Assembly (NCBI RefSeq): GCF_030684315.1
Contig: NC_081372.1
Coordinates: 31,511,481 to 31,575,480, forward strand
Source of the DNA: Stegostoma tigrinum
Taxonomy: Eukaryota
Direction of reading: 5' to 3'
DNA: 64,000 nucleotides
Positions 1,745 to 59,262 of the stretch are shown one piece after another. The first letter of the stretch is position 1. Each line of letters begins with the position of its first letter. The translations under genes and the position numbers were made by a program. The notes under the pieces were generated by a model, which was not told the DNA's origin, did no database searches, and saw only the letters and a list, made by a program, of their open reading frames with translations.

Positions 1745-1959
1745 AAAAATTGAAAGAACTGTGGATGCTGTAAAACAGAAACAAAAGTAGATTGCTGGAA
1801 AAGCTGAGCAGGTCTGGCAGCATCTGTGAAGAGAAGTCAGAGTTTTGGGACCGGTGAGTTCTGGGGAAGGGGTGCTGGTCCCAAAATGTTGAATCTGATT
1901 TCTCTTCACAGATGCTGCCAGACCTGCTCAGCTTTTCCAGCAATCTCTACTTTTGTTTC
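1745..1959. mobile_element. Non-autonomous hairpin element built from two inverted PLE family-A pLTR ends
   Basis: Arms 1778-1841 and 1894-1959 are near-perfect reverse complements, and inner 1843-1852 pairs with 1877-1886. The loop holds a decayed HHR. An unpaired tail (1745-1777) is present on one side. Confidence 0.85.
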
Positions 1960-2879
1960 CAGCGTTTGCTTGTTTCTGATATGCTACTGTACAGAAGCAA
2001 ACCGCGTTTATATGAAGATATTTTTCTGAATAAAGTATATTTTTGAAATTAAAAAGAAATTGGTGACACACAGCAAGTAACACAGAATTTGCATTGAGGG
2101 AAATGTCACTGATCTTTCACCAGAACTTGGAGATTAATGGCAGTGTGTACTGTTTTTGCAAAGTGAGTGGGTTCCCCCTGCAGGATGAGACACAGCTAAT
2201 CGGTTGGCTGGGATGTGTAATTTGATCTTGCTTGCTGTGGTTCTCTCAGAAGTGTGGTTTGATCCAATAATGCTGAGTTCAATCAAAACACAGTGTTAAC
2301 ACTACTAACAGGGAATACAAGCTCATTAGAAGTAGGCACAGCACTAATGAGTTCAAAGAATGCACAGCATTTGCAAGTTAGAAGTGCACATAGTGCGCAC
2401 TTCAGAGCTCAGAGATCATTCAATGAATGCACAGCACTTACATTACAAACTTCAGAGAACACAAAATGCTCACACCATGGGTTCACGGAATGGAAGGGGT
2501 GAGCTGATGCAGAAATTTAATGAGAATGTTCCAACTGAGGTGTGGACGGACCATGGATAGAAGGGTCTTGTGCGCAGTGGTGCAACTCTATGTTTGGGTT
2601 TGATGTTCTATATTCATTTGCTACCTCAGGACTTATGGTCATGGAAGGTGTATCGTATAATGGCCCAAAAGGTCAAGTGTCAAAATTTAAACCTGTTCAA
2701 TACACTTATTGCATGGCTTAAGAACAGAACAGTCTCCTGCTTCTGAGAAGCACATGGTAACTGCAAGACAAGAGCGTCCCCATGTTAAACGTCTCCAAGT
2801 GCAGCTTCTTGCCATGAAACAACGTAATTATGGTTCTGTGCAACTTTCACGCACATACACACTCCATGAACCTACAGCA

Positions 2880-3635
2880 CTGTAAATGTTATTATTCAAG
2901 AAAGGAGAGCAGTACAAACCTGATAACTACAGGCCAATAATTCTAAAGTAAATGGTGGAAAAGATCACAAGAAACCAATGTCAAAGAAAATAATTAATTC
3001 TCACTCTGATTCAAATTGACATTCAGCATGAATTTTTGAGGTAAAATCATGTTTGAACAACTGAGTAATTTGATTAAGTAACTGAGAGTGTTATTGCAAT
3101 ATGGGAAATGTTTCTATGGACTTTCAAAAGGCATTTGATAAAAAGTACTTCATAACAGATTTCTTCAGAAAATAGGATCACATGGAATTAAAGGGACCGT
3201 GGTAGCCTAGTATAAAATTAACAGACATTTGTGTTAAATAGCTGTTGTTTTGACTGGAGAGAAGCAGTCTGTATCCCCACAGGTCAGTATTTGACCAATG
3301 ATTGCCTTGTAATATATAAGTGACTGGGCTTGGGTATACAGAGTACAAATTCAAAGTCTGCAAGTGAAACAAAACTGGCTAAACTAGTAAATAGTGAACA
3401 GGTTAGCAAAAGATTTCAGGAACTGACATATCCAGGTGAAATGGGCAGATATATGTCTGGGGCTATTTCATTCAAGTGAGTCAATTTCAGAAAAACTACA
3501 TGCAGAGTGTGATATAAAAGTGTACTATTTTGACCCCAGTTCAAGAACAGAAGAAACTGAAGGTACAAATTTAAAACAAAACTGAAGATGGCAGGGCGAT
3601 GGTTAATAAAGCATAAGGCAACATAGTTCTGATTA
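2880..3635 (+). mobile_element. Highly decayed CR1 LINE ORF2 (RT) fragment
   Basis: Remnants of NYRPI (aactacaggccaat), QHGF (cagcatgaatttt) and YMDFQKAFDK (tatggactttcaaaaggcatttgataa). Confidence 0.7.
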
Positions 3636-4131
3636 GGCACCAACTTGGAGTGTTGTACCTAACTCTGAGTCCTTGCCCACCCTGCATGGTTCCTCCTCAT
3701 CTGCCTCAGAGTTGGTAGAGGTGCAGAGCTGACTTAACCCAGCAGCAATTTGATCTGGGACCAATATACTGTCATTAGTCAAATGCTGGCCTCCACGCAC
3801 TCCACAACGGTGAAGCCCATCCTGATGAGTTGTTATGATGTTCACATGGCCATGAGCATGGATATGGGAGTATTGACCCGGGAACTGAAAGCTACGTCCA
3901 TGCAGCCTCCTTAATTCATTACGAAGCTTCAGTTGGTTTATTGAAGGATGACAGTCAAGTACATTTAACATTAGTAAGCTAGATTTGGAGACAAAGACAA
4001 TTGGGAGACCTAATGTGTACCATCTACAAGATGCATTGCATAATGCACCGAGGGTCGTCTAACAATACACCTTCCAAATCTGCAACCTCCACCTCAAGAG
4101 TGTAAGAACAGCAGATGTATGGGATGTATGG

Positions 4132-4200
4132 GTATGGCCAGCACAATGGTTAGCACTGCTGCCTCACAGCACCAGGGACCCAGGTTCAATTCCAGCCTGG
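4132..4200 (+). mobile_element. 5' tRNA-like head of an HE1/V-SINE (fragment)
   Basis: ggttagcactgctgcctcacagcaccagggacccaggttcaattcc matches the head of the SINE at 8859-9210 and includes a Pol III B box. Confidence 0.7.
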
Positions 4201-6395
4201 AAGAAATTTTAAATGACAAAAATCAGCAAGTTTATAAGTGAAGACAAATGATGAGAAAGAAAATGAGAAATGAGAGACTAAATTCTATTTTTTTTGATAG
4301 AAGTGGGACATTTATTTATTGGAACAGCATATCATTAGAATCTTGTCTTACTTGCGAATAGTTACTCGTTAGAAGGGATTTATTTGCTTCATTATTATTG
4401 TGGTTAATTTGTTCAATGTTAAGAGTTAGATAAATAAATTGTTACTTGATGAAGTGAATTTCAGAGATTCGTTTTATTTTACTACTAGAAGTTGTTGAAA
4501 GGCAGGTCACACCACTTTTCACATTTCTTTTACAGATTATAGGGTGAGGTGCCTCTCTTTGGGTATTTCAGTTTTAATTCTCAGAGGAGGGTCAACTTCC
4601 GCTTTATAACAGATTGGAGGATCATCCGGGTTTTGAACCAAGGACCTTCCTCTGTTATAAAGTGGAGGTTGACACCAACTCTGAGAATTTAGTCCCTCAA
4701 AATTACAGCCAGTTTATCTGTCTTCCAGAATGCTCCATGCCTTCTCTGTCAAATTTTCCATTAGGAATGCCTAGTCCGTGGATTCTTCCGTATGGAATGC
4801 TAACTGCTTATGCCATTCACACCTTTAATATTTAGACAGTGTTTTCTCTAAGAATTATGGGAGTCTGTGAAGGCAGCGATTCTCTCTTGAGAGCCAAGAG
4901 CAGTTACCTCTGACAAATGGCAGTTAGCTCTCCTGTCTTTGTCCAACTGCCCTTTCATACCCTTGATGACATATCAATTTCTTACAATAGGATTGGTTCT
5001 ACATTGTCAAAACCATCAGATTTAAATTTAATTGGTTTTTGGTGTCTAATTGCCTGGTCCAAATTGATTGGCTAAATTCAAAAACTTGTTCTGTTGGTAA
5101 TAAAACAAACAAATGCTTGGCCTAGTAGCTGTATAGCCTTTCAATACAAGTGTTTCAAATTGGGTGCTTTTTGTGTACTTGTAAACCTTCAAGCTGCTAC
5201 TTGCAGACTTCCATTTTACATCTCTAAGCATAGAAAAAAACACATCACCTTTTAAAAGGACCATGTACTACTTTCCCCCCCAGCATTCTACAAACACAAA
5301 ATTCTAACTTCCTGCTTCCCAATCCATAATACTCTACCCAAGTTCACAACACAGATCTGTGTTCTTTGAGGCGGTAATGAGCAAGTTAAACAAAAAAGAG
5401 CCAGTCTACATAATCTGTTTGGATTTCCAGAAAGGTGCTGCTAAATAAGATAAGAATCCATGGCGCTAGGGACAAGGTACTGGCATGGATATAGGCTTGG
5501 CCGACCAGAAGTAGGCAGCCAGTAGGGATAAAGGTGTCGTTTGCAGGATGCAGCCAATTACTAGTGGAGTTTTGCAGGACTAGTGTTAAGACCACAACTG
5601 TTCATGGTAAACATTAATGATCTGGACAAAGAAGCTGAGGGTATTGTTACTACATTTGCAGATGACATAAAGTTAGTTGGGCAGGTAATGTTGAGGAAAT
5701 GGGAAGGTCGCGGTAGGACTTGGACAGGCTAAGAGAGTGGTTAAGGAAATGGCTGATGGAATGCAATGTGAGTAAGTGTAAGTTTATGTACTTTGCTAGG
5801 AAGAATGGAGAGGTAGATGATTTTCTGGAAGGGGAAAGGCTTTGGGAATCTGGAGCACAAAGTGAATTGGGTGTCCTAGTTCAGGATTCTCAGAACAAAC
5901 AGGTTCAGTTGTCTCCTGGGAAAGTAGCTAGACAGCTAGAATACAATAGCAGAAATGCATTGCTTAGGATGTATGAGGTTCTGGTCAGACTATATTTGGA
6001 ATATTGACCACAATTTTAGCCTCATATCTACAGAAGACTGCACTGGCATTGGTAGGAGTCCAGAGGAGATTTGAAGTAATGATCCTGGGAGTGAGGGTCT
6101 TGTCAATATGAGGAGTGGTTGAAGATACCGAGTCTGTACTTCATGGAGTTTAGAAGAATAAGGGGGATCTCACTGAAACTTACAGAATACTGATATGCCA
6201 GAGTGGTGAGGAAAAGATGTTGCCAATAATAGGAGAGACAAGGGCTCAAGGGAAAAGCTTCAAAGTGAAGGAATGTCTCTTTAGAACTGAGGTGAGGAGG
6301 AATTTCTTCAGGTGGTTAGTCTGGGGAACTCATTGCCGCAAAGGGCTCAAGGCCAATTCTTTGTGTGTGTTTAAGGCAAACATAGATAGGTTCTT

Positions 6396-6664
6396 AGATA
6401 ACAAAGTGTGGGGCTGGATGAACACAGCAGGCCAAGCAGTATCTTAGGAGCACAAAAGCTGATGTTTCGGGCCTAGACCCTTCATCAGAAAAGTCAGTTT
6501 TTTGTGTTCCTAAGATGCTGCTTGGCCTGCTGTGTTCATCCAGCCCCACACTTTGTTGTCTTGCATTCTCCAGCATCTGCAGTTCCCATTATGAATTAGA
6601 TTAGATTCCCTACAGTGTGGAAACAGGCCCTTTGGCCCAACAAGTCCACACCGCCCTATCTCTG
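6396..6664. mobile_element. Non-autonomous hairpin element from PLE family B pLTRs, with HHR motif and 14-bp TSD
   Basis: Arms 6397-6462 and 6494-6560 are inverted. The minus strand of 6458-6490 reads CTGATGA-A-GGGTCTAGGCCC-GAAAC-ATC. TSD atagataggttctt (6382-6395) / ataggtaggttctt (6665-6678). Confidence 0.88.
6593..6656 (-). mobile_element. 5'-truncated HE1 SINE/HER1 LINE 3' tail nested in the hairpin element
   Basis: Minus strand gggcctgtttccacactgtagggaatctaatctaattc matches the tail of the SINE at 8859-8900. It splits the host sequence cccattat|ctctg. Confidence 0.8.
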
Positions 6665-8320: not shown

Positions 8321-8321
8321 G

Positions 8322-8552
8322 AACAAAAACAGAAGTTGTTGGAAAAGCTCAGCAGGCCTGGCAGCATCTGTGAAGAAAAAGATCAGAGTTAACCTTTCAG
8401 GTCCGGTGTCCCTTCCTCAGAATTGATGGTGGCAGAGAAAACATCAGTTTATATGCAGAAAATAAGGAGAGACGTGGAGTAGGGAGTAATCGATAGGGTA
8501 CAGCCTAAAGAGAGAGAACAGTTAGACAGACAAAGGAGTTGATAACGATCAG
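8322..8552 (-). mobile_element. Solo PLE family-A pLTR with HHR motif
   Basis: The reverse complement aligns to about 630-865. The minus strand of 8386-8423 reads AATT-CTGAGGA-A-GGGACACCGGACCT-GAAAGGTT-AACT. Confidence 0.8.
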
Positions 8553-8858
8553 GGTTGGGTGTTTCAGTTTTAATTCTCAGAGCGGGGGTTAACTTCTGCT
8601 TTATTTCAAAGGGCTTTGGAGTATAAGGATAGGGAAGTCTTACAGCAATTTTACAAGGTGCTGATGCGACCACATCTGGAGTAGTGTGAGCTGTTTGGTC
8701 CCCTTATTTAAGGAATGATATCATTTCACTAGAGGCAGTTCAGAGAAGGTTCACTCGGATGATCCCAAGTATGGAGGGATTGTCTTATGAACAAAGGCTA
8801 AACAGGCTGGGGGTCTATTCAGTGAAATTTAGAAGAATGAGATGTGATCTCATTGAGA

Positions 8859-9210
8859 TTATAGAATGGAATCCCTACAATGTGGAAGCAGGCCATTCAG
8901 CCCATTGAGTCCATAACAACCTTCCAAGAGCATCTCATCCAGACCCACCCTATCCCTGTAACCCTACATGACTCATGGCTAACCCACCTAGCCTGCATAT
9001 CCCTAGACATTACGGGTAATTTAGCATGGCCAATCCACCTAACTTGCATATCTTTGGACTGTGGGAAGAAATCGGAGCACCCGGAGGAAACCCACACAGA
9101 CATGGGAGAATGTGCAAACTCATTACAACAGTCACCTGAGGGAGGAATTGAACCCGGTTCCCTGGCACTGTGAGGCAACAGTGTTAACAACTGAGCCACT
9201 GTGCCACCCC
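8859..9210 (-). mobile_element. Full-length HE1-type V-SINE
   Basis: tRNA-like head with A box (TGGCTCAGTTG) and B box (GGTTCAATTCC, 9144-9154). Central V-domain GAGTTTGCACATTCTCCC...GGGTTTCCTCCGGGTGCTCCG...CCACAGTCCAAAGA and a CR1/HER1-derived tail. It splits the host CR1 at cattgag|acgtacag. Confidence 0.88.
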
Positions 9211-9562
9211 AGACGTACAGAATTCTTAAGGAACTTGACAGGGTAAATGCTGAGAGGATGTTTCCACTCATGGAAGACTAGAGGGCACTGTCTCTGAATT
9301 GAGGGGTGCCAATTTAAGACTAAGTTCAGGAGAAATTTCTTCTCTAAGGATGCTGTGAGTCTTTGGAAACCCTTTACACATAGAACTGTGGGAGCAGAGA
9401 CTTGGAGTATATTTAAGGCTTACATAGATAGATTCTTAATCAGGAGGGGAATCAAGGGTTATAGGAAAAGGCCAGGGAAGTGGAAGTGAGGAGTGTCAGA
9501 TCAGCCTTGATCTTATTGCATGGTGGAACAGGTTTAAGGGCCAAACAACCTACTCCTTTTCC

Positions 9563-9656
9563 TGAAAAAGGGTCTAGGCCTGAAACATCAGCCTTCCTGC
9601 TCCTCTGATGCTGCTTGGCCTGTTGTGTTCATCCAGCTCTACACCGTTTTATCTCT
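9563..9656 (+). mobile_element. 94-bp PLE family-B pLTR insertion with a perfect 13-bp TSD
   Basis: TSD ctactccttttcc at 9550-9562 and 9657-9669. The insert starts at a decayed HHR core (c)tgaaaaagggtctaggcctgaaacatcag. Confidence 0.88.
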
Positions 9657-11894: not shown

Positions 11895-12030
11895 ACGATG
11901 GAGATAGTACGAACTGCAGATGCTGGAAAATCTGAGATAAGAAGGTGCAGAACTGGATGAACACAGCATGCCAAGCAGCATCAGAGGAGCAGGATAGCTG
12001 ACATTTTGGGCCTGGACCCGTCTTCAGAAA
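11895..12030 (-). mobile_element. PLE family-B pLTR end (tail plus HHR remnant)
   Basis: Matches 52800-52932. The minus strand has CTGAAGA-C-GGGTCCAGGCCC-AAAATGTC. Possible short TSD gtttcct/gttttcct. Confidence 0.8.
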
Positions 12031-19400: not shown

Positions 19401-19895
19401 AAACTTGCAAGGGTTCAGAAAATATTTACAAGAATATTGCCAGAGTTGGTGGGTTTGAGCCGTACTACGAAGTTGAATAGGCTGGGGCTATTTTCCCTGG
19501 AGCATCAGAGGCTGAGGGGCGACCTTATAGAAGTTTATAAAATCATGAGGGGCATGGATAGGGTGAAGAGCCATGGTCTTTTTCCCAGGGTAGGCAAGTC
19601 CAAAACTCAAGGACAAAGGTTTAAGATGAGAGGGCAAGATTTAGAAGGGACCCAAGAGGCAATCTTTTCATGCAGAGGGTGGTGTGTATATGGAATGAGC
19701 TGCCAGAAGAGGTGCTGGTGACCGGTATACTTACAACATTGAGAAGGCATCCAGATCAGTACATGAATAGGAAGGGTTTAGAGGGATATGGGCCAAATGC
19801 TGGCAAATGGGACTAGATTAATTTAGGATATCTGGTCAGCATAGACAAGTTGAACTGAAGGGTCTGCTTCTGTGCTCTATGTCTCTATGATTCTC
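16495..19895 (+). mobile_element. Near-full-length but inactivated CR1 (HER1-like) LINE: ORF1 esterase, ORF2 APE plus RT, 3' tail
   Basis: ORF1 motifs (VHIGTND, DELHLH); APE start (CIYFNARG, YRPPN); RT (QGSVLG, IKFADDTK in ORF 18700-19029); C-terminal RLRGDLIEVYKIMRG; tail ctatgtctctatgattct. Multiple stops and frameshifts. Confidence 0.92.
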
Positions 19896-35923: not shown

Positions 35924-36066
35924 CTCCCTCCCTGACGTGCCACTGTCAGAGCTCCACGGACTTTGCAGCGGCTTAGCTGCTGTGTACTGGACACGTTGCA
36001 CCAGCTTGGTTGGGGTTGTCTCTCACTCCGAGCGCTAACTGGCTGCAAAGGGCACTTCAAAAGGCA

Positions 36067-38897: not shown

Positions 38898-39046
38898 GTG
38901 CGGAACTGGAGGAATACAGCAGGTCAGGCAGCATCAGAGGAGCAGGAAAGTCGAAGTTCTGTAGAAGGGTCCCTACCCGAAACCCTGACCTTGCTATTCC
39001 CTTGACGCTGGCTGACCAGCATGCTGTATTCTTCCAGCTCCACACC
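38898..39046. mobile_element. Older hairpin element from PLE family-B-like pLTRs
   Basis: Inverted arms (ctggaggaatacagca / tgctgtattcttccag) flank agttctgtagaagggtccctacccgaaac, a decayed HHR. Confidence 0.75.
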
Positions 39047-42750: not shown

Positions 42751-44476
42751 TACTTTACCTTTACCTTTATATCCCATGTGTGAACAAAAAGAAAATTGCA
42801 GCCTATTATTTTAGCAAAGTTGTCTATTAATTTAAAAATACTCTTTTTAACATAGTCAATGGAGGAAATTTTCTTTAATGTATTTCTAGGTCAATGTCAC
42901 ATTGTATAACTTTATTCTATAGCTTCCTTTCTAACATGACCTATGTAAACAAAACAGCCACTTACAAAAGGAAATACTAAACAGATCTGAGCTGATTCAA
43001 ATGAAGGAAAGTTTTGAACCAATGTGATTTATCTTTATATGAGTACTTTACACAATAAATCTTGCTGAACAATATTCACATGTATTAACTAGTTCAATTC
43101 GTAAACTGATTAATACTTTCAGCGGTCTTCAAGAAACCTGCCAGAACTTTCTCATGATCTGGAACAAAAACAAAAGCTACTGTAACTACTCAGCAGGTCA
43201 GGCACAATCTGTGAAGAGGGAAACCTAAGGCATATTTTAATGGTATGAGACAAGAACTTTCAAAAGTTAATTGGAATAGACTGCTCGCAGGTAAAGGGAC
43301 GAGTGACAAGTGGGAAGCTTTTAAAAGTGTGATGATGAGAGTTCAGAGGCATTACGTTCTTATTAGTCTGAAAGGTAAGGCCGGTAAAATTAGGGAACAA
43401 TGGATGAATAAAGATATTCAGGTTCTAGTCAAGAATAAAGAAGAATCATATATTGGATATAGACAACTGGGATCGAATGAATCTCTTTAAGAGTACAATC
43501 TTTTGAAGAGTATAAAGAGCATGAGGGGGCATTCTTAAAAGGGAGATCAGGAAGGCAAATAGGGGATATGAGATAGCTTTGGCAAATAAGGTTCAAGATA
43601 ATCCAAAGACATTCTACAAGCAAATTAACAGCAAAAGAGCTACTAGAGAGAGAGTACGGCCCCTTAAAGATCAATGAGGTTGCCTTTGTAGTGAACTTCA
43701 GGAGAAGGGAGAGATATTAAATGAATATTTCATGTCAGTTTTTACTGTGGATAAAGAAATGGAGGCTACAGGACTCAGGGAAATAAATATTGATATTTTG
43801 AAAACAGTTCACATTACAGACAAGGAAGTACTGGAGTTCTTAGAAAACATAAAAGGTAGATAAATCTCCGGGATCTGATCAAGTGTATCCCAGGATGTAA
43901 GAGAGGAAATCGCAGAGCCCCTAACAAATGTATTTTCACCTATGACACGCGCGAGGTGCTGGAGCACTGGAGAGTGGCTTTTGTTGTGCCTTTATTTAAG
44001 AAAGGCTGTAAGGAGAAGCCAAAAAAGATTGATGCGAGCAAAGCAGTAGATGTTGTTTACTTGGACTTTAGTAAAGCTTTTGATAAGGATTTCCATATGG
44101 TAGACTAATTGATAACATCATAACAGGGATTCAGGGTGACCTTACCAATTGGACATAAAATTGGCTTGACGGTACGAGATAGCCGGTGGTAATGGAGGAT
44201 TGATTTTCAGACTGAAGGCCTATGACAAGCAGTGTTCCAAAGGGATTGGTACTGGATCCACTTTTGTTGTCATTTATAAAAATGATTTAGATCAGCATAT
44301 AGGAGGTATGGTTACTAAGTTTGCTGATGACACCAAAATTAGTAATGTAGTGGACAGTGGAGAAAGTTATCTAAGATTACAAAGAAATCTTGATCAATTG
44401 GGTTAACGGGCTAAGGAGAGATGTATTGCATTTTGGTAAAACCAACAACGGCAGAACTTATACAATTAAAAGTAGG

Positions 44477-44974
44477 TTTTTGAGGTTGGTTAGCTCACCG
44501 AGCTGGTTTGTTGTTCAGCAGACATTTCGTTACCGTGCTTGGTAACATCCTCAGTGCAGCCTACGATGAAGCACCGGTCTGCTTTTCCACCTGGTTTTTA
44601 AACTCTGGGGTCGATTGTGATGGATTGCCTCACTTCCAGGTTTCCTCCTTACTGGAACGTATATAGGGTCGAGTTCAATGTGTTTATTAATAGCCTGTTT
44701 CGTGGAATGCCATGCTTCCAGGAATTCTTGTACTTGTCTCTGCCTAGCCTGTCCCAAGATCTTTGTGTTGTCCCAGTTGAAGTTGTGGTTCTCCTTGTCC
44801 AAGTCAATTGAGATGAGTGAGTATTGGTCCGACACACCGACGCTTCATCAGCAGCTGCACTGATGATATTGCCAAGCATGGTGACGAAACATCTACGGAA
44901 CAACAAACCAGCTCGGCGAACCACCCAACCTCAGCATCCACAACCCAAGCTACAGATCTACTCCAAAATCTTAG
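44477..44974 (-). mobile_element. Truncated Penelope/Poseidon-type PLE (family C) with inverted pLTRs, two HHR motifs and a 13-bp TSD
   Basis: ORF 44551-44835(-) NHNFNWDNTKILGQ...EFLEAWHS..AINKHIELDPIY resembles a PLE endonuclease C-terminus. Inverted repeat at about 44481-44572 versus 44842-44933. TSD aattaaaagtagg (44464-44476) / aattaaaggtagg (44975-44987). Confidence 0.85.
44518..44557 (-). ncRNA. Minimal type I hammerhead ribozyme motif (PLE family C)
   Basis: GCA-CUGAGGA-U-GUUACC(AAGCAC)GGUAAC-GAAAU-GUC-UGC: stem I GCA/UGC, 6-bp stem II and a GUC triplet. A second copy at 44857-44896(+) reads CUGAUGA...GAAAC-AUC. Confidence 0.72.
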
Positions 44975-47900
44975 AATTAAAGGTAGGGCCTTGGGCAGTG
45001 TTGTAGAACAGAGAGACCTAGGAGTTCAGGTACATAATTCTTTGAAATGTGTATCAGAGGTAGACAGGGTGGTTAAGAGAGCATATAACATGCTTTTCTT
45101 CATTGTTTAGATCTTTAAGTAAATGAGTTGGGATCTTCATGTTGAGGTTACAGAGTACGTTGGTGAGGCCTCTTCTGGAGTACTGCACACAGTTCTGGTC
45201 ACCCTGTTATAGGAAGGATATTATTAAATTGGATAGGGTTCAGAAAAGATTTACCAGGATGTTGCTGGGAATAGAGGTTTTGAGTTATAAAAAATAGATA
45301 GGAAAGACTGAGATGTTTTTTCATTGGAGCATAGAAGGTTGAGGGGTGACCTTATACCGGTTTATAAAATCATGAGGGGCATAGATGCAGTGACTTAGCA
45401 AAGGCCTTTTCCCTAAGGTGGGGAAGTTCAAAACTAAGGGGCATATTTTTAAGGTGTGAAAAGAAAGGTTTAAAAAGGACAAGAGGGGGCAATTTTTATT
45501 TAGTGGTAAGTATGTGAAATTAACCGCCAGAGGAAGTGGTAGATGCTGGTACAGTTGCAACATTTAAAAGTCTTTTGGACAGTACATGAAAAGGCTTGGA
45601 AGAATATGGGCCAAAAGCAGAAACACGAAACTAGTTTAGTTTGTGAACATGGTCAGTGTGGACTAATCGGACCAAAGGATCTGTTTCCACGCTGTATGAT
45701 TCTATGAAACACTGTCTAATTTCAGACTTGGCACCTCAGCAAAAGTCAAGTGGAGGTCCAAGCAAATGCTGGACCACTTCACTGGCAGCATTTTCTGAAC
45801 TGTCTAGTGAATAGCAAGGATGAGGTACCTGTTTAGGTTCCTTAAAGAAAGCTCTAATCGAAGGTGGGAAGAATTGGACTGATCGTACAAACAGTGCATG
45901 AATCCAATAACGTAGGAAATATCCTTCTGAAACTGAGCAATAAGATTTTGTTTCATTCAAACATCCCATTGATATTCTGGATTACAATTAAGGGACCAAA
46001 AAAAACTTCAATACTGTTGGAAATGTAAGGATGTACTGCGTACCTAGACATCTTGGGAATTGCAGTGATAAGACACAAGACTTAAATAGATCTGTGGATC
46101 TCATTTTGAATTTGATATTTTAATGGCTATATTTCCGCCAATTTTATTTCAATTACATTTCAATGAAATTTCTAGTTTGGGTGGGAATTTCATCTTCTAC
46201 TTTCATAGCATTGAGAGTTATTCATTTATTTGGCTGAAGTTCTCTCCTTTGAAACTCAAGGCTATTACAAAATTGCAATCTTCCTGTTAACTGCAAACAT
46301 TACATAGTGTAAATGTCTTTTCAAATACCTTGAACAAAAATATCACACTGAGGACAGATGATAACTTCTGCAATATCATACTGATTTTACAGAAGTATTT
46401 TTATTGCTGCATTTTCCTAGGGGAAATGTGTGCTTTACTATTTTCTAATTTGATGCTGTGTCTGAGTACTGAAAAAGGGTCAGTGTTGTGAAGAAGTTGG
46501 CTGTTGGTTTGGTACAATGGGCTGTTGCAACTCAGATGGCCTTCATCCCTAAACAGTCATGACCTGGAAAGCACCCACTGTGGGTTCAATCTCAAGAATT
46601 CTCATGAGTGTGCAAACCAGCCCAAACATTGAGCATCAGAATGCAGGCCTTTTTAATCATATATTGTTGGCTGTTAGGGTTACAGACTGTGTTGCTGAAG
46701 AGCAGAAAGATTAAACACTTAATTATCCTGGGCTTTGCAAGCGGTAAATTAAGAAGCATAAAGACTCCAATGAAACTGCCTTATAATCTGTTTACATCTG
46801 AAATAAGAGAGCATCTTTTTTCAAAGTTGCTGCAGTTGAAGGTAGTGAATTCTTTGGATAGTTCAGTAAATATCCATGAGATTGGAAATTGACTTCCCTG
46901 CAGCCTGTACAAGGGAATGGGGACGTACTTTTCCATTCCATTTGAATTTTTTTGTGTCAACTGGTGCAATATCTTCATCCACACTGGTAACAGGCTCTGA
47001 GTTAGTGTGTCGTGAAGGGTTCAATTGACAGTGGTAACAGGGTGCCATTGGAGTGAGATAGTGCTTGCAAATAACTAAGAAGAAAATGAAAAGGAGATAA
47101 CTCCTGAAATGGTGAAAAAGCTAGATGAAGGCCACAATAATAAATAAAGAATGAAATAAATAAACTATGCTAAAGGAGGGACAAAATATGGAATTTGAGG
47201 AAACTGGCAAAAGATATGTCAGAGGCCCTAGAAATTATTAGCTGAGTATCCCGCGTGCTTTGGGGTTCTGATGTTCGAACCAAAATGGAGTCTTGAGTTC
47301 ACACTTGCTGGTGGTACAGGCACCGAGATGTTCCAGCCAGGCAGATCCTTCTGATCACAGAGACATTTTCCATGATCTTTTGGGGCTGCCTTCATGTGGC
47401 TACCTCTTTGCTCCATGGAACTATTAAATATAACTACATAAAAGGAGGCTTAGACCCATCATACCTGCATTACTTTCAGGTAGAACAATCTAATTTATTG
47501 AGATCTTTTTCCTCAAATATTTATGCAGTTTCTTCTAAAAGCTTTCATGTACTTTGCTTCCTCCACTCTTCAGACAATGCCTTCCATTTGCTAATAATCC
47601 TTCAGCCACCAAAAAAAATTCTAACTTCTCTTTATTCCCTTGATAATAAAAAGTTAATTTATATGAGAAGAGTCATCATCATCTGTAATTTTTTTTATCA
47701 ATCTTCTCTCCTTGATGCTGCTGGCTAGTTATCTCCAGCAGCTTTTTTTAAATATTTCAAATTTACAGCATCTGCAGTGTTTATTTTTGTGTTAAGTTTA
47801 TGCCGGCCAGTTACAGAATCACTGAATATGAAAATAGTTTTTCCTATGTACCTAATCAATGCAACTCACAATTTTGAACAATGCTGTTACAGTTCTTCTG

Positions 47901-49939: not shown

Positions 49940-51882
49940 GGAGGCTGGGCACTTTTCCAGTGCCTGGAGCCAGCATGTGTGCAGGAAGTGTGTCCAGCTG
50001 CAGCTCCCAAAAGCTTCAACAGCATTGTGGAGCATCTGTGAGTCTCAGAGCATTGTGGCTTGAATGTTTAGGGAGGTGGTCACACCATAGATAAAGGGAC
50101 CTGAAGAAGGAAGGGAATGGGTGACCACTTGGCAATCCAAGATAAATAGGCATATAGTTCTCTAGGGTCCTGTTCACAAACTGCAATTCCACTTTAGAGG
50201 CTGATGAGGTGTAGGCGCCTCCAAAGAGTAAAGACATAGCCAAGCAGTGTATCTGCACTAGAGGGGAGGTAGAAAGAAAGGGCAAGAGTAATAGGGGATT
50301 CTATAGTCAGGGGAACAGATAGATGCTACTGTGGCCATCAGTGTGACTCCAGGATGGTGTGTTGCCTCCCTGGTGCTAGAGTGTGGAATGGTACAGAATG
50401 CCTGCAGGCCATCCAGAAGAGGGTGATGATAAGGCAGAGGTCGTAAATTTTGGTACCAATGACATAGGTAGAAAGAGGGATGAGATCTTGCATCAAGAAT
50501 TCCGAGAACCAGGTGGTGGACTAAAAAGCAGCACCTTTCAGGTCGTAATCTCTGGATTACTTCCACTGCAACATTCTAGCGAGGACAGAAATAGGAGAAT
50601 GGTGAAGAAGAATGTGTGGCTAAACAGATGGTGCAGGAGGTGCAATTTAGATTCTTGGATCACTGCTACCATTTCTGGGGAAGATGGGATGTGTACAAGT
50701 GGGACAATCTACACCTGAACCAGAGTGGGACTAATATGCTTGCAGGAGTGTTTGCTGGTGTTATTGGGAGGAGTTTAAACTAATTTGGCTGGGAAGGGTG
50801 GCACAGAATGTTAGCAGAATAAGGGCAAAGCACAATAACAGTGAAACAATTAAGTTACAGGGAGTGCAGCTGTATTAATTTTCAAGGGAGTAAAGCAAGG
50901 CTAGATGGTCTTTAATGCCAGGAATATCACAGGTAAATGAAGAGAAAAAGGCAACAATTGATACGTGAATGTGTGCTATCGTAGCCACTAGAGAGATATG
51001 GTTGAGAGAAGGGCAGGATTGACAAATCAACTTTCTGGGAGATAGAATCTTCAGGTGAGACACAGGAGGGGGTAAAAGAGGAGCTGCCATTGCATTATTA
51101 GTTAAGGTTTCAGTTACTACAGTAAGGAGAGATATAGGGCTTCAAATGAAGCTTATGGGTAGAGTTTAGGAATAAAAAAAGTGTGAGCCACATTGCTAGC
51201 TGTTTACTATTGACCCCCAGAAAGGTCATAGTAGTACAATAGTGAAGAAGGTCTATTGGACACATCTTTATCAATGGAGCACAGATGACAAAAGCAGGGA
51301 AGTCATGTTGGGGTTGTATAAAACTTTGATGAGACCACAGTTGGAGTGCTGCATAGTTCTGGTTGCCACATTACAGGAATGATGTGATTGTACTGTAGCG
51401 GGTGCAGAGGAGTTTCATTAGGATGCTGGCTGGGATGGAAAATTTAAGTTGTGGGGAGATGTTGGATAGGCTTAGGTTATTTTCCTTGGAGCAGAGAAGA
51501 CTGAGGGGTGATGTGGTTGAGGTGTACAAGGTTATGAGAGGTGTGGATAAGGTAAATAAGGAGCACCTGTTCCCCTTCATTGAAGTGTCAATCACAAGGG
51601 GATGTAGGTTCAAGGTAAGGGCAAGAGGTTTATCATGAATGTGAGGAAAAGCTTTTTTACTGAGAGGGTCTGGAATGCACTGTCTGGGAGGCTGGTATAG
51701 GGGAGTTGCCTCACGTCCTTTAAAATTTATCTGGATGAGTACTTGGCACGTCATAACATTCAAGGCTATGTGCCGAGTGCTGGTAAATAGGATTAGGTTG
51801 ACGGTCAGGTGTTCTCACTTGTTAGTGCGGACTCAACGGGCCAAAGGGCTTCTTCTGCACTGTATGATTCCAAGTCTCTTTT
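49940..51882 (+). mobile_element. CR1 LINE with a large internal deletion (ORF1, APE start, then RT C-terminus)
   Basis: CRKCVQLQL at about 49978; esterase NFGTNDIG (ORF 50383-50718); APE remnants to about 51220, then a jump to RLRGDVVEVYKVMRG (ORF 51402-51638) and the tail. Confidence 0.85.
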
Positions 51883-52770: not shown

Positions 52771-52789
52771 TATATAAAGGACATTGTGG

Positions 52790-54978
52790 TTAAAATTGTA
52801 TCAGTGATAATGGGAACTGCAGATGCTGGAGAATCCAAGATAATAAAATGTGAGGCTGGATGAACACAGCAGGCCCAGCAGCATCTCAGGAGCACAAAAG
52901 CTGACGTTTCGGGCCTAGACCCTTCATCAGAGAGGGGGATGGGGTGAGGGTTCTGGAATAAATAGGGAGAGAGGGGGAGGCAGACCAAAGATGGAGAGGA
53001 AAGAAGATAGGTGGAGAGGAGAGCGTAGGTGGGGAGGGGATAGGTCAGTCCAGGGAAGACGGACAGGTCAAGGAGGTGGGATGAGGTTAGTAGGTAGGAG
53101 ACGGAGGTGCGGCTTGGGGTGGGAGGAAGGGATGGGTGAGAGTAAGAACAGGTTAGGAATGCAGTGGGTGGAGGGGAAGAGCTGCGCTGGATGTGTGGTG
53201 CAGTGGGGGGAGGGGATGAACTGGGCTGGTTTTGGGATGCGGTGGGCGAAGGGAAGATTTTGAAGCTGGTGAAGTCCACATTGATACCATTGGGCCGCAG
53301 GGTTCCCAAGCGGAATATGAGTTGCTGTTCCTGCAACCTTTGGGTGGCATCATTGTGGCACTGCAGGAGGCCCATGATGGACATGTCATCTAAAGAATGG
53401 GAGGGGGAGTGTAAATGGTTTGCGACTGGGAGGTGCAGTTGTTTATTGCGAACTGAGCCCCACCTCTTCCTCCGTTACATTGATGACTGTATCGGCGCCG
53501 CCTCTTGCTCCCCAGAGGAGCTCGAACAGTTCATCCACTTCACCAACACCTTCCACTCCAACCTTCAGTTCACCTGGGCCATCTCCAGCACATTCCTCAC
53601 CTTCCTGGACCTCTCAGTCTCCATCTCAGGCAACCAGTTTGTAACTGATGTCCATTTCAAGTCCACCGACTCCCACAGCTACCTAGAATACACTTCCTCC
53701 TACCCACCCTCCTGCAAAAATTCCATCCCCTATTCCCAATTCCTCCACCTCCGCCCCCAGGATGAGGCGTTCCACTCCCGCACATCCCAGATGTCCAAGT
53801 TCTTCAAGGACCGCAACTTCCCCCCACAATGGTCGAAAACACCCTTGACCGCGTCTCCCGCATTTCCCGCAACACATCCCTCACACCCCGCCCCCGCCAC
53901 AACCGCCCAAAGAGAATCTCCCTTGTTCTCACACACCACCCCACCAACCTCCGGATACAACGCATCATCCTCCGACACTTCCGCCATCTACAATCCGACC
54001 CCACCACCCAAGACATTTTTCCATCCCCACCCTTGTCCGCTTTCCAGAGAGACCACTCTCTCCGTGACTCCCTTGTTCGCTCCACACTGCCCGACAAACC
54101 CCACCACACCCGGCACGTTCCCCTGCAACCGCAGGAAATGCTACACTTGCCCCCACACCTCCTCCCTCACCCCTATCCCAGGCCCCAAGATGACTTTCCA
54201 TATTGAGCAGAGGTTCACCTGCACATCTGCCAATGTGGTATACTGCATCCATTGTACCCAGTGTGGCTCCCTCTACATTGGGGAAACCAAACGGAGGCTT
54301 GGGGACTGCTTTGCAGAACACCTCCGCTCGGTTCACAATAAACAACTGCACCTCCCAGTCGCAAACCATTTCCACTCCCCCTCCCATTCTTTAGATGACA
54401 TGTCCATCATGGGCCTCCTGCAGTGCCACAATGATGCCACCCGAAGGTTGCAGGAACAGCAACTCATATTCCGCTTGGGAACCCTGCAGCCCAATGGTAT
54501 CAATGTGGACTTCACCAGCTTCAAAATCTCCCCTTCCCCCACCGCATCCCAAAACCAGCCCAGTTCGCCCCCTCCCCCCACTGCACCACACAAGCAGCCC
54601 AGCTCTTTCCCTCCACCCACTGCATCCCAAAACCAGTCCAACCTGTCTCTGCCTCCCTAACCTGTTCTTCCTCTCACCCATCCCTTCCTCCCACCCCAAG
54701 CCGCACCTCCATCTCCTACCTACTAACCTCATCCCACCCCCTTGACCTGTCCGTCTTCCCTGGACTGACCTATCCCCTCCCTACCTCCCCGCCTACACTC
54801 TCCTCTCCACCTATCTTCTTTTCTCTCCATCTTCGGTCCGCCTCCCCCTCTCTCCCTATTTATTCCAGAACCCTCACCCCATCCCCCTCTCTGTTGAAGG
54901 GTCTAGGCCCGAAATGTCAGCTTTTGTGCTCCTGAGATGCTGCTGGGCCTGCTGTATTCATCCAGCCTCACATTTTAT
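52790..54978 (+). mobile_element. Young 5'-truncated Neptune-like PLE (family B) with about 620-bp inverted arms and a 17-bp TSD
   Basis: RT motif FLRYIDD at about 53467; Cys linker CNRRKCYTC; GIY-YIG NVVYCIHC..C..LYIGETKR. 52840-53458 is the reverse complement of 54326-54981. Perfect TSD tataaaggacattgtgg at 52773-52789 and 54979-54995. An extra tail (52790-52839) is present on the inverted arm only. Confidence 0.95.
52901..52932 (-). ncRNA. Minimal type I hammerhead ribozyme motif (PLE family B), intact core
   Basis: CU-CUGAUGA-A-GGGU(CUAG)GCCC-GAAAC-GUC-AG. The plus-strand copy at 54889-54920 is mutated (CUGUUGA, GAAAU). Confidence 0.72.
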
Positions 54979-54995
54979 TATAAAGGACATTGTGG

Positions 54996-55900
54996 CTAGA
55001 TTGCAGCAGTTGGTGAGGGAACCAACAAGAGGGAAAAACACATTATCTCATCCTTACCAATCTGCCAGTTCTATGACAGTACTGATAGGAGTGACCACTG
55101 CACACAGTCCTTGTGTAGACAAAAGCTAGTCTTCACATTAAGGATACCTTCCAGTTGCGAAAAAGGGTCACTGGACGCGAAATGTTAACTCTGTTTTCGG
55201 TACACAGATGCTGCCAGACCTGCTGAGATTTTCCAGCAATTTCTGTTTTTGTACCCAGCATGCTGCGTTCAATGAGATACATTTTGAAAGTATCTATTCA
55301 CTCAAAAATAGACATCCATGATTTGATGGCTTACTTTTGATCCATATCCAAACACAACCTGTAATGTCACGACCCGACATATCCCCACTCTAACAGAACC
55401 ATCAAGCCAAGGGGTCAATGCAGGTTCATGAAAAGTGTAAGAGGGTACATGAAGGTCAGAGCAGGTATGCACAAAAATGAACTGGCAACCTGGTGAAGCT
55501 AAAAAACGGACCACCCGTGTACCAAACAACACATATGGCAAGTGAAAGACAGGACTGAAGATTCCACAACCAATGGATCAGATCTGCCGTCCTGCCCCAT
55601 TTGCTTATGTATGGCAGTAGACATTTAAACAAATAACTGGGGGAGGGAGCTTCACAAATATCTCCATTCTCATTGATTGGAGAGTCCCACAGAAAATGTA
55701 CAAGATAAAGTTGAACATCCCCAGCAATCCTCAGCTTGAAAAGCCAAGTAGATTTACATTCCAGATGACAATTTTCAGTCAAACTGATTCTCTCCATGTA
55801 ATTGCAAAAAATGGCTGGAGACACTGGCTACTACAAATGCTTTGGTACTGACAAAATTCCTACACCAGTTCTGAAACCGTGCTCCAACATTTGCACCTTG
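54996..55900 (+). mobile_element. Decayed CR1-clade LINE (second family) ORF2 fragment
   Basis: QLVREPTRGKN (APE end) and downstream remnants collinear with 57570-58100. Confidence 0.65.
55150..55252 (+). mobile_element. PLE family-A pLTR end
   Basis: agttgcgaaaaagggtcactggacgcgaaatgttaactctg...cagatgctgccagacctgctgag. Confidence 0.8.
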
Positions 55901-57569
55901 CAACATTCTCCAAGCCACTCCAAGGCTCTGTGCATGGCAATTAGTGCATAAACACAGAGTGTAGCATTGACTCCTGGTTCCAGAATTCAGCTCTGATTTT
56001 AAGGATATATCCCAGTATCCTTCACAGTCAAAAAAAGATTCTATCTACCCCATCAATTCCTTTCAATTTTTTTTAAAAAGAAAAATAACCTACTGTTTTT
56101 CAGAAGGAAGACTCCCAGTTTATGCAATCTTTCCCGATAACTCTGGGAGCCCTGGTGACATTCTGGTGAATTTGCACAACAGACCACTATATATTTTTCT
56201 AAATTGTGATAGCCAAACTGTAAACAATACTCCAAATGCAGTCTAACTGAGGCTGTTCTAGCTGTTCAAAAATACTTGATTGACTTGATGAGCTGTAGGA
56301 TGTCTGTACAACACTTTGCACTGTGTTTTGTAACAAAATATACGTGACAATAAATCAAATCAAATTTTTATGTGGGGATAGGTGAGAAGAAGTGCAAGTA
56401 TTTATTAATTTATGTAGATAAGGTTCCTTTCCTTTACAGTCTCAAACACATGTAGTAAAGGCTAACATTTCACAGGATTTTTGATTTGTTTGCACTTTAC
56501 TGCAATATTTCAGTGATATATGTATATAGCTGAATTTCTTTGGGTTTTTATTGTTCTAAGCTTGTCAACTTATAAAAGTGCTGAGGTCAATTATCAAGTT
56601 GGTCCAAAATGTTTTACATGTTATTGTCATATTAAAGAAAACCACATTGTTGAATTATTTAGTTTATGCCATCTTTACCACGATGTTCTGTACAGAAGTG
56701 CAATTACACATTCCATGATGTCTCAGCTTTCATCTTCCTGTGAGCGCATCTTGTTGGAACTTTACAACTGCTACTGAGATTATAAAACTAGTGCCCAAAT
56801 CATTGTGTTTTCCAATTAGCTTAATTAGACCTTTTGAAAGCAACTTGCAGGTTTTATTAAATTGTAGCCATGTTCTAAATAATTATTTGGCTTATTTGTT
56901 TCACCAGATTTGGCATTTTAATGTTTGGATTTTTCATCTTGCATTTCAGCATTGAAAATAGGCACCGGAAAACATTTCAACATCCCAGGTTTTTATATCG
57001 ACAGAACCAACTGATATTAATGAGCTTAAGTCAGCAATAACACAACCTTCATTTACTATACCATTGTATTTGAAATTATCTTCCTAAATTCCAACAAAAA
57101 TTAAAATCTAAGTCATTAGTCACCTTTTCTGATGCTACTCCCAAAGTATTCACTAGTCTCGTGAAAGTCAATGGGATATTTCACTGTTTTAAAGTGTTAC
57201 GTAGGTGCAGATTGCTTGAATGCAAGGGAACAGTTAAACTCATAATATCCACCTCTAACTTTCCACCTCCTTTCAACTCTTCTGTTATCCCTGTTCTTAT
57301 CAGACAATTTATCTAATGTTACATCTTTGATTAACTATAATTCTATCTATGTCATACCAATCCCCCATTTAAATTTCATAACACTAAGCTAATGATGTTG
57401 AGTCCCTACTACATACTGCATACCAATATTTTGACCCTGAATTGGGCTTCCAATCCGTGATTTTCTCTCTTTGTCATGTGGCACTAACATCATTGTAAAT
57501 GGGAAGAACTTAAATACATCTAACAGCACAAAACAGGGAATCCATTAGACACTGTGGGCCATCAGTGGA

Positions 57570-59105
57570 ATGATATTTTATGTCACAGTACATAAACCTA
57601 TGGCCTGGCATATTACACATACTACCATTATTATCAAGCTAGGGACCAACTGCAGTTCAATGAGGACCGTAGCAGGCATCCAGAGGAGCACCAGGCATTC
57701 TTAAGAATGAGACACCAGTTTTGCAAAGCTACAATACCTGCATACTAAACAGAAACAGTAAAACCCAGTGACTCCAGTCAACTGCTCAGATCAAATTCTG
57801 CATTCTGAACAAATTCAGTTTGGAATGATTCAGGGAATCCAGTTGGGATAAGGCTCTATAAACAGTTCCATCTTCAAAAATGGCAGAGGCCAGCACTTCA
57901 GTGCAAAAGACAAATCTGTACTACTTACAGCCATCTTCAGCCAAAAGTGCAAAGTAGATGTGCCATCTCATCTTCATCTCAATTACTAGCATTGTAGATG
58001 TCAGGAATGGTTTAATACACCAAAGGCACTTGGCCTGACAATATGCCAGCTGTATTACTGAAAATTTGAGACAAGAAATAGCTGTGCCCTAGCCATGCTG
58101 TTCCTGTATAACTTCAATACAGGGACCTACCTGGCAATGTACAAAGTTATCCAGTTATGTTCTGGCTACAAAAAAAAAGTCAGGACAGTTCCAATCCCGT
58201 CAACTACTGTCCTTTCAGTATGCTTTCAAACATCAGGACAGTGATGTCTTTTATCGATAGTGTTATCAAGTGAAATTTATTCAGCAATAATCTGCATGTC
58301 AGCGCTCAGTTAGGGCTCTGTTAAGGCTGGTTGGCTCCAAACCTCATTATAGCCTTGTTCCAAACGTGACAAGAAAAATGAACTCCTGAGGTGAGGTGAC
58401 AGCGACTGCCCTTGATATCAAAAAATTATTTGACTGAGTGTAGCATCAAGGAGGCTGAGCAAAATTGAACTCAGTGGGGATCTGGGGCAAAACTAAGTGG
58501 AATGATAGCTGATATAGGAGAGACTGGTTTTGGTATTGGATCAATCATCTTCCTTCCAAAACACTGCTGCAGCAATTCTTCAAGGTAATGGCCAGACAGA
58601 AGCATCTTCAGCAATACTTTCCCACAATCTTAAGATCAGAAGTAGGGAATTATAGTGATTAGTCTTTAGTCTCTTTTGTAGCTCCCCAGAAAATGAATCA
58701 AGTGCATGCCCACAAGCAACAAGAGCCAGACAATATTAGAGTTTAGGCTGATGAATGGCAAGTAGCATTTGCACCATAACAAATGTCTAAGTGACCATCT
58801 CCAACAAGGAAAAATACAACCATTTCCTTTTGATTTCAATGGGACAATTAATGTTTAATCTCTACAATCAAAATCCTGGGAGATTGCCATTGACCAGAAT
58901 CTTAGTTGAACCAACTATATAAATATTATAGGTAACTCATGTTCTTCATTGAGGTCTATCCACCAACTTCAAGGCAAACGTCAGGAGTGCGATGGAATAT
59001 TCTCCACTTCCTGAGACGAATACAACTCCTAAAACACCCATGAAGCCTGATTCCATCCTAGGTAAAGCATTCTGCAAGACTGGCACCTTAAACATTCACT
59101 CTTTA
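57570..59105 (+). mobile_element. Decayed CR1-clade LINE (second family) RT region; its 3' end resumes at about 60420-60660
   Basis: Remnants of KALGPDN, NYCPFS, ALDIK and AQVRSAMEYSPL. Confidence 0.7.
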
Positions 59106-59160
59106 CACCAGTGTGCACTCTTTCCACTGTTGCATTTAGTCTTCATCTACTCCACTAGGT

Positions 59161-59262
59161 ACAAAAACAGACGTGCTGGAAAAGCTCAGCAGGTCTGGCA
59201 GCATCTGTGACGAAAAAAATTCACAGTTGACGTTTCGGGTCCAGTGACCCTTCCTCAGGACT
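59161..59262 (-). mobile_element. PLE family-A pLTR end carrying the best-preserved family-A HHR (59225-59262)
   Basis: Minus strand AGUC-CUGAGGA-A-GGGUC(ACUG)GACCC-GAAAC-GUC-AACU. Approximate TSD ctccactaggt/ctctattaggt. Confidence 0.85.

What the first reader, a model, noticed from the sequence alone, without database searches (positions are those of the whole stretch)
1745..59262. Three families of Penelope-linked minimal hammerhead ribozymes scattered through one shark locus
Seen: about a dozen copies of CUGA(U/G)GA-N-stem II-GAAAC-GU(C/U) with three unrelated stem II sequences. Family A has GGGUC-ACUG-GACCC (764, 8386, 55153, 59225); family B has GGGU-CUAG-GCCC (6458, 9563, 11997, 52901, 54889); family C has GUUACC-AAGCAC-GGUAAC (44518, 44857). 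The catalytic core is constant while stems I and II differ but stay paired. Each family is physically linked to its own GIY-YIG remnant. Established: PLE pLTRs carry minimal type I HHRs thought to cleave as dimers. Inference: stem III is only the loopless palindrome ACGU, so these must be obligate dimers, and at this density the genome may hold very many copies. I do not know whether these shark families are described.
Basis: partly seen in the sequence, partly recalled or inferred. Interest (0 to 1): 0.72.

Follow-up and report, generated by a model that had tools for sequence, protein, structure and literature searches.

The report
Shark Penelope hammerheads, enormous copy number
These motifs are mostly decayed copies of the small, likely self-cutting "hammerhead" RNA already known from the end repeats of Penelope-like jumping genes; what stands out is about 190,000 intact cores in this genome and many copies starting just in front of the motif, likely where the element's RNA begins.

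Summary
[quoted passage not shown] All 12 listed copies exist, plus one more. Only 2 of 13 keep an intact core, and only 52903(-) also keeps both helices; decay is neutral (core 3.5%, tail 3.6%). A and B are homologous Neptune-type lineages, not unrelated; C is Poseidon-type. A mostly has a GUU site; B's helix I is only 2 bp. A full-length B element exists (pLTR, 1,076-aa RT/GIY-YIG ORF, pLTR). Genome-wide there are 192,288 strict cores against 1,243 control matches, 96,611 of them exact B. Many copies start 0-6 nt before CUGA, likely the RNA 5' end. Starts at the cut site (984) exceed +1 (311) but not +7 (1,214), so there is no clear cleavage footprint. B's monomer is predicted to fold as an inactive hairpin, so cleavage likely needs a dimer plus protein. 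Cleavage was not tested. The scan noted this motif before (259 notes, at least 25 genomes).

The parts
52903..52930 (-). Family B minimal hammerhead; the only window copy with intact core, helix II (4 bp) and helix I (2 bp)
   Evidence: identical to the 96,611-copy pattern
52789..54981 (.). One inverted Neptune-type (B) insertion: minus arm 52789-53458 (EN end, 3' UTR, HHR, long tail) and plus arm 53458-54981 (RT end with YIDD, linker, GIY-YIG, 3' UTR, HHR, short tail), flanked by a 15-17 nt target duplication
54891..54918 (+). Family B hammerhead, decayed (A6U, C15.2U)
6388..6592 (.). Family B fold-back stub; HHR at 6461-6488(-) with G16.2A, arm starts 1 nt before CUGA
9562..9654 (+). Older family B stub; HHR 9562-9589 decayed (G8A, G16.2A)
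11901..12028 (-). Older family B stub; HHR 12000-12027 decayed (G12A, C15.2U)
38898..39045 (.).
3..841 (.). Inverted family A (Neptune-type) insertion: GIY-YIG remnant 123-542(-), whose own HHR lies just left of the window, and plus arm 617-841 with decayed HHR 767-796
1753..1957 (.). Family A fold-back stub; HHR 1861-1890(+) decayed
8321..8553 (-). Family A fragment; HHR 8391-8420 with C15.2G
55153..55255 (+). Family A stub; HHR 55157-55186 with four core changes
59157..59262 (-). Family A stub starting 4 nt before CUGA; HHR 59229-59258 with intact core and helix II but broken helix I
44480..44975 (.). Inverted family C (Poseidon-type) insertion: EN C-terminal remnant 44551-44830(-) running into HHR 44521-44554(-) (C15.2U), and plus arm with HHR 44860-44893 (G16.2A)

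Best explanation
These are minimal type I hammerhead motifs in the pseudo-LTRs of three Penelope-like retrotransposon lineages (A and B Neptune-type, C Poseidon-type), left as mostly decayed, 5'-truncated insertions, and in the active element the motif likely cuts only as a protein-assisted dimer, likely about 30 nt from the 5' end of the element's RNA. Shown: the pLTR-ORF-pLTR layout, fixed tail ends, a pile-up of copy starts just 5' of the core, neutral decay after insertion. Inferred steps: (1) the unit RNA starts at the 5' strand of helix I, which would explain why helix I is only 2-4 bp; (2) reverse transcription starts internally at two sites about 64 and 100 nt past the cut site, as shown in vitro for the Anolis element, so a unit RNA yields 95-135 nt HHR-plus-tail stubs and only read-through RNA yields long copies; (3) the motif cannot close helix III alone and in family B sits in an inactive hairpin, so cutting needs a second HHR (ACGU:ACGU) and probably the element's protein; (4) cutting is not required for insertion, since most copies keep both sides of the cut site. 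The scattered genomic copies are passengers, not a host regulatory system.
For: Full-length B element in L082(-): 634-nt pLTRs 98.7% identical, period 3,621 nt, HHR 138 nt before the ATG and again after the ORF. Its ORF is 1,076 aa with RVT_1 and GIY-YIG matches (E 3e-5 and 0.0015, both under Pfam's cut-off). CxxxCxxC linker in A and B, none in C. 192,288 strict cores against 1,243 reversed-control matches. Compatible changes between lineages: helix I pair 2.2-1.2 is U-A in 3, C-G in 2 and U-G in 2 of 7 hand-picked copies, and 118 of 119 cells pair. C subfamilies show G-C versus U-A at helix I pair 3. Starts: 53 of 174 random B-type copies begin 6 nt before to 1 nt inside the core, and 43 of 90 hits with the A reference do the same, about 9 of them cross-matches. 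Genome-wide, 20,397 starts over 4 positions against 6,584 over 15 positions around the cut. Tail ends cluster at +62-68 (40 of 123) and +97-105 (33 of 123). 156 of 174 copies span the cut site. B monomer: hairpin -11.0 against HHR fold -3.1 kcal/mol, frequency 0.84. Core 3.5%, tail 3.6%, CpG 23.7% substitution in 115 copies. PMC4209133 and PMC11167929 (parts 1-2 of 4 read, each).
Against: No cleavage, transcription start or protein binding was measured. The covariation is thin: one double change, reached by 134 of 500 shuffles. The start pile-up could be an RT stall or template-switch hot spot at a stable hairpin. It was not seen in family C (8 copies, 6 long). Clades were assigned by motif, not by a tree. 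A 2-bp helix I may mean that the young B hammerhead no longer cuts at all. In PMC11167929 no RNA reads ended at the cut site, and in bioRxiv 2026.07.22.740005 eight of nine Xenopus dimers did not cleave.
Confidence: 0.62

Rival explanations
1. Same elements, but the hammerheads work as protein-free obligate dimers that cut tandem or read-through RNA into unit lengths.
For: Loopless palindromic ACGU in all three families. Full-length elements carry two HHRs 3.6 kb apart, and short tandem arrays exist (L179, 440-448 nt units, 97.5% alike). Starts at the cut site are three times those at +1 (984 against 311).
Against: The ACGU duplex is worth only -1.7 kcal/mol, and B prefers an inactive hairpin. 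3 of 37 intact motifs have a same-strand neighbour within 1 kb. Starts at +7 (1,214) exceed those at the cut. Published dimers cleave weakly (PMC4209133).
Confidence: 0.15
2. In the young family B the motif is no longer a working ribozyme. It is kept as a structured 5' leader, promoter-proximal element or protein-binding site, with cleavage lost or irrelevant.
For: Helix I is 2 bp in young and old B against 4 bp in A. The inactive hairpin dominates. There is no unique cut-site footprint. HHR-less Naiads proliferate, and HHR mutants do not affect insertion in vitro (PMC8557442 passages; PMC11167929).
Against: All catalytic positions are kept across A, B and C masters, whose ORFs are about 55-60% (A/B) and about 24% (B/C) identical. 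The remaining helix I pair changes compatibly. D. virilis Penelope also has a 2-bp helix I (PMC4209133).
Confidence: 0.18
3. The dispersed copies are selected, host-used ribozymes, or an independent retrozyme/SINE family that spreads through circular RNA.
For: Very high density (one strict core per 17 kb), many short copies with a fixed start, and occasional tandem arrays.
Against: The core decays like the tail. 11 of 13 window motifs are broken. The stubs are continuous in sequence with autonomous elements and share their tails and inverted arrangements. Tandem units are rare.
Confidence: 0.05

Closest known systems
[quoted passage not shown]
   Same: Type I core, extra nucleotide between A9 and G10.1, G10.1-C11.1 pair, palindromic 15.2-16.2 with no loop 3, location in both pLTRs, most copies single or in inverted pairs, several families per genome; reported in Neptune, Poseidon and Xena elements of fishes.
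   Different: No shark entry in the searched table. Counts there are about 9,000 (Xenopus) and 4,000 (coelacanth) against 192,288 strict cores here, though their descriptor also required helices, so the numbers are not like for like. Family B has a shorter helix II (4 bp) and helix I (2 bp) than their usual 7-8 and 4-5 bp in Schistosoma, and one sequence is present 96,611 times.
PAc, Poseidon element of Anolis carolinensis (PMC11167929; parts 1-2 of 4 read)
   Same: HHR at the pLTR-ORF junction; two adjacent tail ends matching internal RT starts; insertion from uncut RNA.
   Different: In PAc the ORF starts inside the HHR; in family B the ATG lies 138 nt past the cut site. A and B are Neptune-type. 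Protein-assisted cleavage is shown for PAc and only inferred here.
Neptune and Penelope/Poseidon clades of EN+ PLEs (PMC8557442, passages)
   Same: Single ORF with RT, DKG motif and C-terminal GIY-YIG with CCHH; Zn-finger-like linker in A and B, absent in C; 5' truncation, partial tandems, inverted copies, 30-40 bp optional tail.
   Different: No tree was built and Repbase/Dfam could not be consulted; Nematis also has a linker motif. A pile-up of starts at the HHR's 5' edge was not found in the papers searched.
Non-LTR retrozymes (PMC7229834, passages; bioRxiv 10.64898/2026.07.22.740005, parts 1 and 3 of 5 and passages)
   Same: Type I HHRs in very high number (axolotl 126,247); derivation from PLE pLTRs proposed; one chondrichthyan genome was surveyed and had them.
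   Different: Retrozymes are tandem repeats, in axolotl with a 1-bp helix III plus loop. Here tandem copies are about 8% of intact motifs, none lies in the window, and the genome is about a ninth of the axolotl's size.

Membership tests
min-HHR of metazoan PLEs | Core CUGANGA...GAAA-C-G-U-H with an extra nucleotide before helix II and a G10.1-C11.1 pair | tested here: met
   for the common A, B and C forms; only 2 of 13 window motifs are still intact
min-HHR of metazoan PLEs | No helix III loop; palindromic 15.1-16.1 (ACGU) | tested here: met
min-HHR of metazoan PLEs | Helices I and II paired, with compensatory changes between families | tested here: inconclusive
   Helix II always pairs; helix I is 2 bp in B; one double change, 134 of 500 shuffles as high; a second one between C subfamilies
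min-HHR of metazoan PLEs | Located in both pLTRs flanking an RT-EN ORF | tested here: met
   Both pLTRs shown for B only (L082). For A and C only the copy downstream of the EN is shown
min-HHR of metazoan PLEs | Self-cleavage at NUH (as a dimer or with protein) | not testable with these tools
   No assay; the genomic footprint is ambiguous
EN+ Penelope-like elements | One ORF with RT and C-terminal GIY-YIG with CCHH; pLTRs, inverted copies, optional tail | tested here: met
   (Pfam scores are below the gathering cut-offs)
Neptune clade (families A, B) | CX2-5CxxC linker between RT and EN | tested here: met
   CNRRKCYTC in B, CNRRRCNTC in A; Nematis is not excluded by this alone
Penelope/Poseidon clade (family C) | No Zn-finger linker between RT and EN | tested here: met
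   L131 543-aa frame; RVT_1 E 2e-4
Neptune / Poseidon clades | RT phylogeny groups with reference members | not tested
   No reference PLE proteins were on hand; no PDB match for the B ORF
Non-LTR retrozymes | Tandem repeats of at least two HHR units | tested here: not met
   None in the window; 3 of 37 intact motifs in the random sample, all in one array
Non-LTR retrozymes | Expressed as linear and circular unit RNAs | not testable with these tools
   Only contigs were available

The most novel reading that the evidence does not exclude
This genome holds one of the densest loads of hammerhead cores on record (about 190,000, one per 17 kb, half from one young Neptune family with intact 1,076-aa ORFs). 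Its fossils map the PLE cycle: the element's RNA starts at the first bases of helix I, so the minimal hammerhead is a 5'-leader-removal switch, locked in an inactive hairpin until the element's own RT-EN dimer pairs two of them and clips off the first ~30 nt.
Probability: 0.25. Interest if true: 0.62.

Novelty: new member of a known kind. Interest (0 to 1): 0.3.

Why it matters
What PLE hammerheads do is still open (PMC8557442, PMC11167929). A young Neptune family with intact ORFs and about 100,000 identical motifs gives both a protein-RNA pair for assays and a large fossil record of where RNA templates start and stop. If the RNA starts at helix I, the short helix, the many 100-130 nt stubs and the role of cleavage are explained together. 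For the host, over 100,000 cores with paired helix II raise a testable question of whether pre-mRNAs are ever cut; neutral decay suggests mostly not. As a class the motif is known, and this window adds little by itself.

Tried and rejected
Rfam: no hammerhead model matched the window at E<=5; two unrelated sub-threshold hits, of which mir-577 is the fold-back stub at 1819-1917. Pfam on the window's own PLE remnants: no RT or GIY-YIG match; domains were seen only in longer copies elsewhere. PDB: no match for the B ORF. Expression: no RNA holder listed. Five runs were laid, all contigs, four guessed to be RNA and from another organism; they hold a related family but cannot show ends, splicing or cleavage. 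Cleavage footprint (a lead from earlier notes): 984 starts at the cut, 311 at +1, 1,214 at +7 with the same design. Among the first 100 listed of 6,584 truncated copies, counted by eye, 12 start at 0, 17 at +7, 11 at +6, 10 at +9 and 2 each at -1, +1 and +2. At least 5 of the 30 position-0 loci inspected were internal indels or deletions, and many others were fold-back joints. I call this inconclusive. Two window A copies that seemed to start at the cut (1844(-), 39151(+)) are 6-nt internal deletions between AAC repeats. Selection on dispersed cores: rejected. Folding z-scores of the HHR-plus-tail stretches were mostly weak (0.4 to -2.8). One search used misplaced columns for the two tail helices and is superseded. 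An intron ending near the HHR was considered (AG after a pyrimidine tract 22 nt upstream of the B core; YAG-ATG in the tail) but no read evidence was available. A Pfam scan of the window's other short ORFs was completed for only 2 of about 27. Literature searches found no paper describing shark PLE hammerhead families. Repbase, Dfam, the 2014 supplement figures and the bioRxiv supplements were not seen and may hold them.
Full report
Observation. A scan with one window copy per family as reference found all 12 listed motifs plus an A copy at 1861(+) and a B-like copy at 38959(+); 5 Markov shuffles per family gave 0, 1 and 0 matches. Scored base by base, 2 of 13 motifs have an unchanged core: 52903-52930(-) (B) and 59229-59258(-) (A). 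The second has no helix I. The others carry changes at C3, U4, A6, G8, G12, C15.2, G16.2 or U16.1, mostly CpG decay. Rfam has no hammerhead match here. Each family has one copy joined to a GIY-YIG remnant: A 123-542(-), B 54127-54525(+), C 44551-44830(-). The rest are short stubs, several of them fold-backs. The two B copies at 52903 and 54891 are arms of one inverted insertion with a 15-17 nt target duplication.

What the elements are. A search with the window's RT piece gave 81,530 first-look candidates, 150 scored, three with frames over 1,000 aa. L082(-) holds a full element: 634-nt pLTR, ORF, pLTR, period 3,621 nt, pLTRs 98.7% identical, one HHR in each, the ATG 138 nt past the predicted cut. 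The ORF is 1,076 aa with RVT_1 and GIY-YIG matches below Pfam's cut-offs. A-family pieces are about 45-77% identical to it per segment and C pieces about 24-28%. A and B have the CxxxCxxC linker that marks Neptune (and Nematis); C lacks it, as Poseidon does (PMC8557442, passages). A and B ends align collinearly over the HHR and a 100-nt tail, so their helices II are homologous. No full-length A or C copy was fetched and no tree was built.

Copy number. Exact patterns give 96,611 B, 762 A and 417 C matches, with 0 in each reversed control. The generic core CTGANGA-N11-22-GAAACGTH gives 192,288 against 1,243. In 92 evenly placed 10-kb stretches (920 kb), 51 strict cores were found, 37 with helix II of at least 4 bp, control 0; this extrapolates to about 130,000. 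Published counts are about 9,000 in Xenopus and 4,000 in coelacanth (PMC4209133) and 126,247 canonical motifs in axolotl (PMC7229834, passages). The descriptors differ, so this is a rough comparison.

Anatomy. A: helix I AGUU/AACU, helix II 5 bp, site usually GUU. B: helix I 2 bp, helix II 4 bp with a CUAG loop, site GUC. C: helix I 3-5 bp, helix II 6 bp, site GUC (357 core-like motifs from all loci, a set biased towards intact ones, 45 unassigned). In 7 hand-picked A and B copies the second pair of helix I is U-A (3), C-G (2) or U-G (2) and 118 of 119 cells pair, but 134 of 500 shuffles reach the same covariation score. Two C subfamilies differ by G-C against U-A in helix I. Helix III is ACGU with no loop, so only two molecules can form it; that duplex is worth -1.7 kcal/mol. 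The B monomer is predicted to pair CUGAUG with CGUCAG: -11.0 against -3.1 kcal/mol for the hammerhead fold, frequency 0.84. In 115 random B-type copies, non-CpG core positions differ by 3.5%, tail positions by 3.6% and CpG positions by 23.7%, so copies decay neutrally once inserted. Of 37 intact motifs, 3 have a same-strand and 4 an opposite-strand neighbour within 1 kb.

Fossil boundaries. Of 174 random B-type copies, 66 extend more than 60 nt upstream of the cut, 6 start at -50 to -35, 53 start at -34 to -27 (the core begins at -28) and 49 start between -25 and +14. With the A reference, 43 of 90 hits start at -36 to -29 (core at -30), about 9 being cross-matches; C gave 8 copies, 6 long. 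Genome-wide, 20,397 B copies start within -32 to -29 against 6,584 within -4 to +10, about eightfold more per position after allowing for base composition. Tail ends fall at +62-68 (40 of 123) and +97-105 (33 of 123); the clusters at +48 and +71 are artefacts of ungapped extension. This matches the two internal RT starts shown for the Anolis element (PMC11167929). 156 of 174 copies span the cut site, so their template was uncut there. Starts exactly at the cut number 984, against 311 at +1 and 1,214 at +7; some are indels or fold-back joints. I therefore do not confirm the cleavage footprint claimed in some earlier notes, nor exclude a small one.

Mechanism. Most likely the unit RNA starts at the 5' strand of helix I (inferred). 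The RT primes internally in the tail, which yields HHR-plus-tail stubs from unit RNA and long copies from read-through RNA (inferred and PMC11167929). The hammerhead cuts only when two are brought together, probably by the element's protein (inferred; shown for PAc only), trimming about 30 nt or cutting multimers, and this is not needed for insertion. The rivals are protein-free dimers, a non-cutting B motif and host use.

Comparison and verdict. This is a new member of the min-HHR class of PMC4209133 (parts 1-2 of 4 read; table searched, no shark row; supplement figures not available). PMC6155905, PMC12602865 and PMC5568229 were seen as passages only. RNA evidence was not obtainable. The scan already holds 259 notes with these words in at least 25 genomes and many on this genome. 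The reading of the fixed start as a transcription start was prompted by those notes and is tested here only as a boundary pile-up. Interest 0.30.

Noticed in passing
window 34493-36022(-): Uninterrupted 509-codon frame (Met at codon 35) of the Rh/ammonium transporter family (Pfam PF00909, E 1.5e-70). A single-exon Rh gene fits shark Rhp2 (recalled; PMC5568229 passages confirm only that Rhp2 exists in sharks). Orthology not tested.
   Followed up: partly
L082:6030-6137(-); L019:1531-1640(+): A and B tails share two potential helices downstream of the HHR, GAUGCUG/CAGCAUC (49 of 49 cells paired) and GCUG/CAGC (27 of 28), in 7 copies, without double changes. Candidate binding site for the element's protein.
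   Followed up: partly
L082(-) and L019(+), 15-25 nt past the cut site: Both A and B have a pyrimidine tract, AG, then ATGCTG. In B this ATG opens a 27-codon upstream frame in phase with the main ORF and closed by TGA. In A it looks like a branch point and 3' splice site overlapping the cut site. B also has a conserved TTTATTYCAG 22 nt upstream of the core. Possible pLTR intron or uORF.
   Followed up: no
L179:7452-8370(+): Tandem array of 440-448 nt units (pLTR end, HHR, ORF start), three intact B HHRs in a row, units 97.5% alike: a retrozyme-like derivative and a natural dimer substrate.
   Followed up: partly
window 52912-52923(-) (family B helix II): GGGUCUAGGCCC is self-complementary; two copies can form a 12-bp duplex of -22.6 kcal/mol, an alternative way for B RNAs to pair.
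   Followed up: partly
window 1840-1856(-) and 39135-39157(+): Two A copies carry the same kind of 6-nt deletion between AAC repeats that removes the cleavage triplet.
   Followed up: no
L243, L261, L157, L224, L233: Several B-type copies have 1-3 nt insertions or a 2-nt deletion right at the cut site. No positional control was run beyond, where insertions at 0 (2 of 158) were not above other sites.
   Followed up: partly
L195, L172, L173; G000:C1:1398153: Further Neptune-like HHR families with helix II GAGUC/GACUC-type arms and longer loops; the genome has more than three families.
   Followed up: no
L082:6020-6200 laid on runs X1, X2, X4, X5: Contigs of another organism (organism A; RNA is a guess) hold a related family across the ORF and HHR, 80-99% alike, with C to U at helix I position 2.2.
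   Followed up: partly
window 5591-6447, 8624-8809, 17781-19890, 21420-21814, 43215-45707, 51371-51814: Many LINE fragments (RVT_1 at 18694-19026; CR1-like by recall) and SINE-like pieces at 4141-4198 and 9139-9196. The C insertion sits inside one LINE fragment.
   Followed up: no
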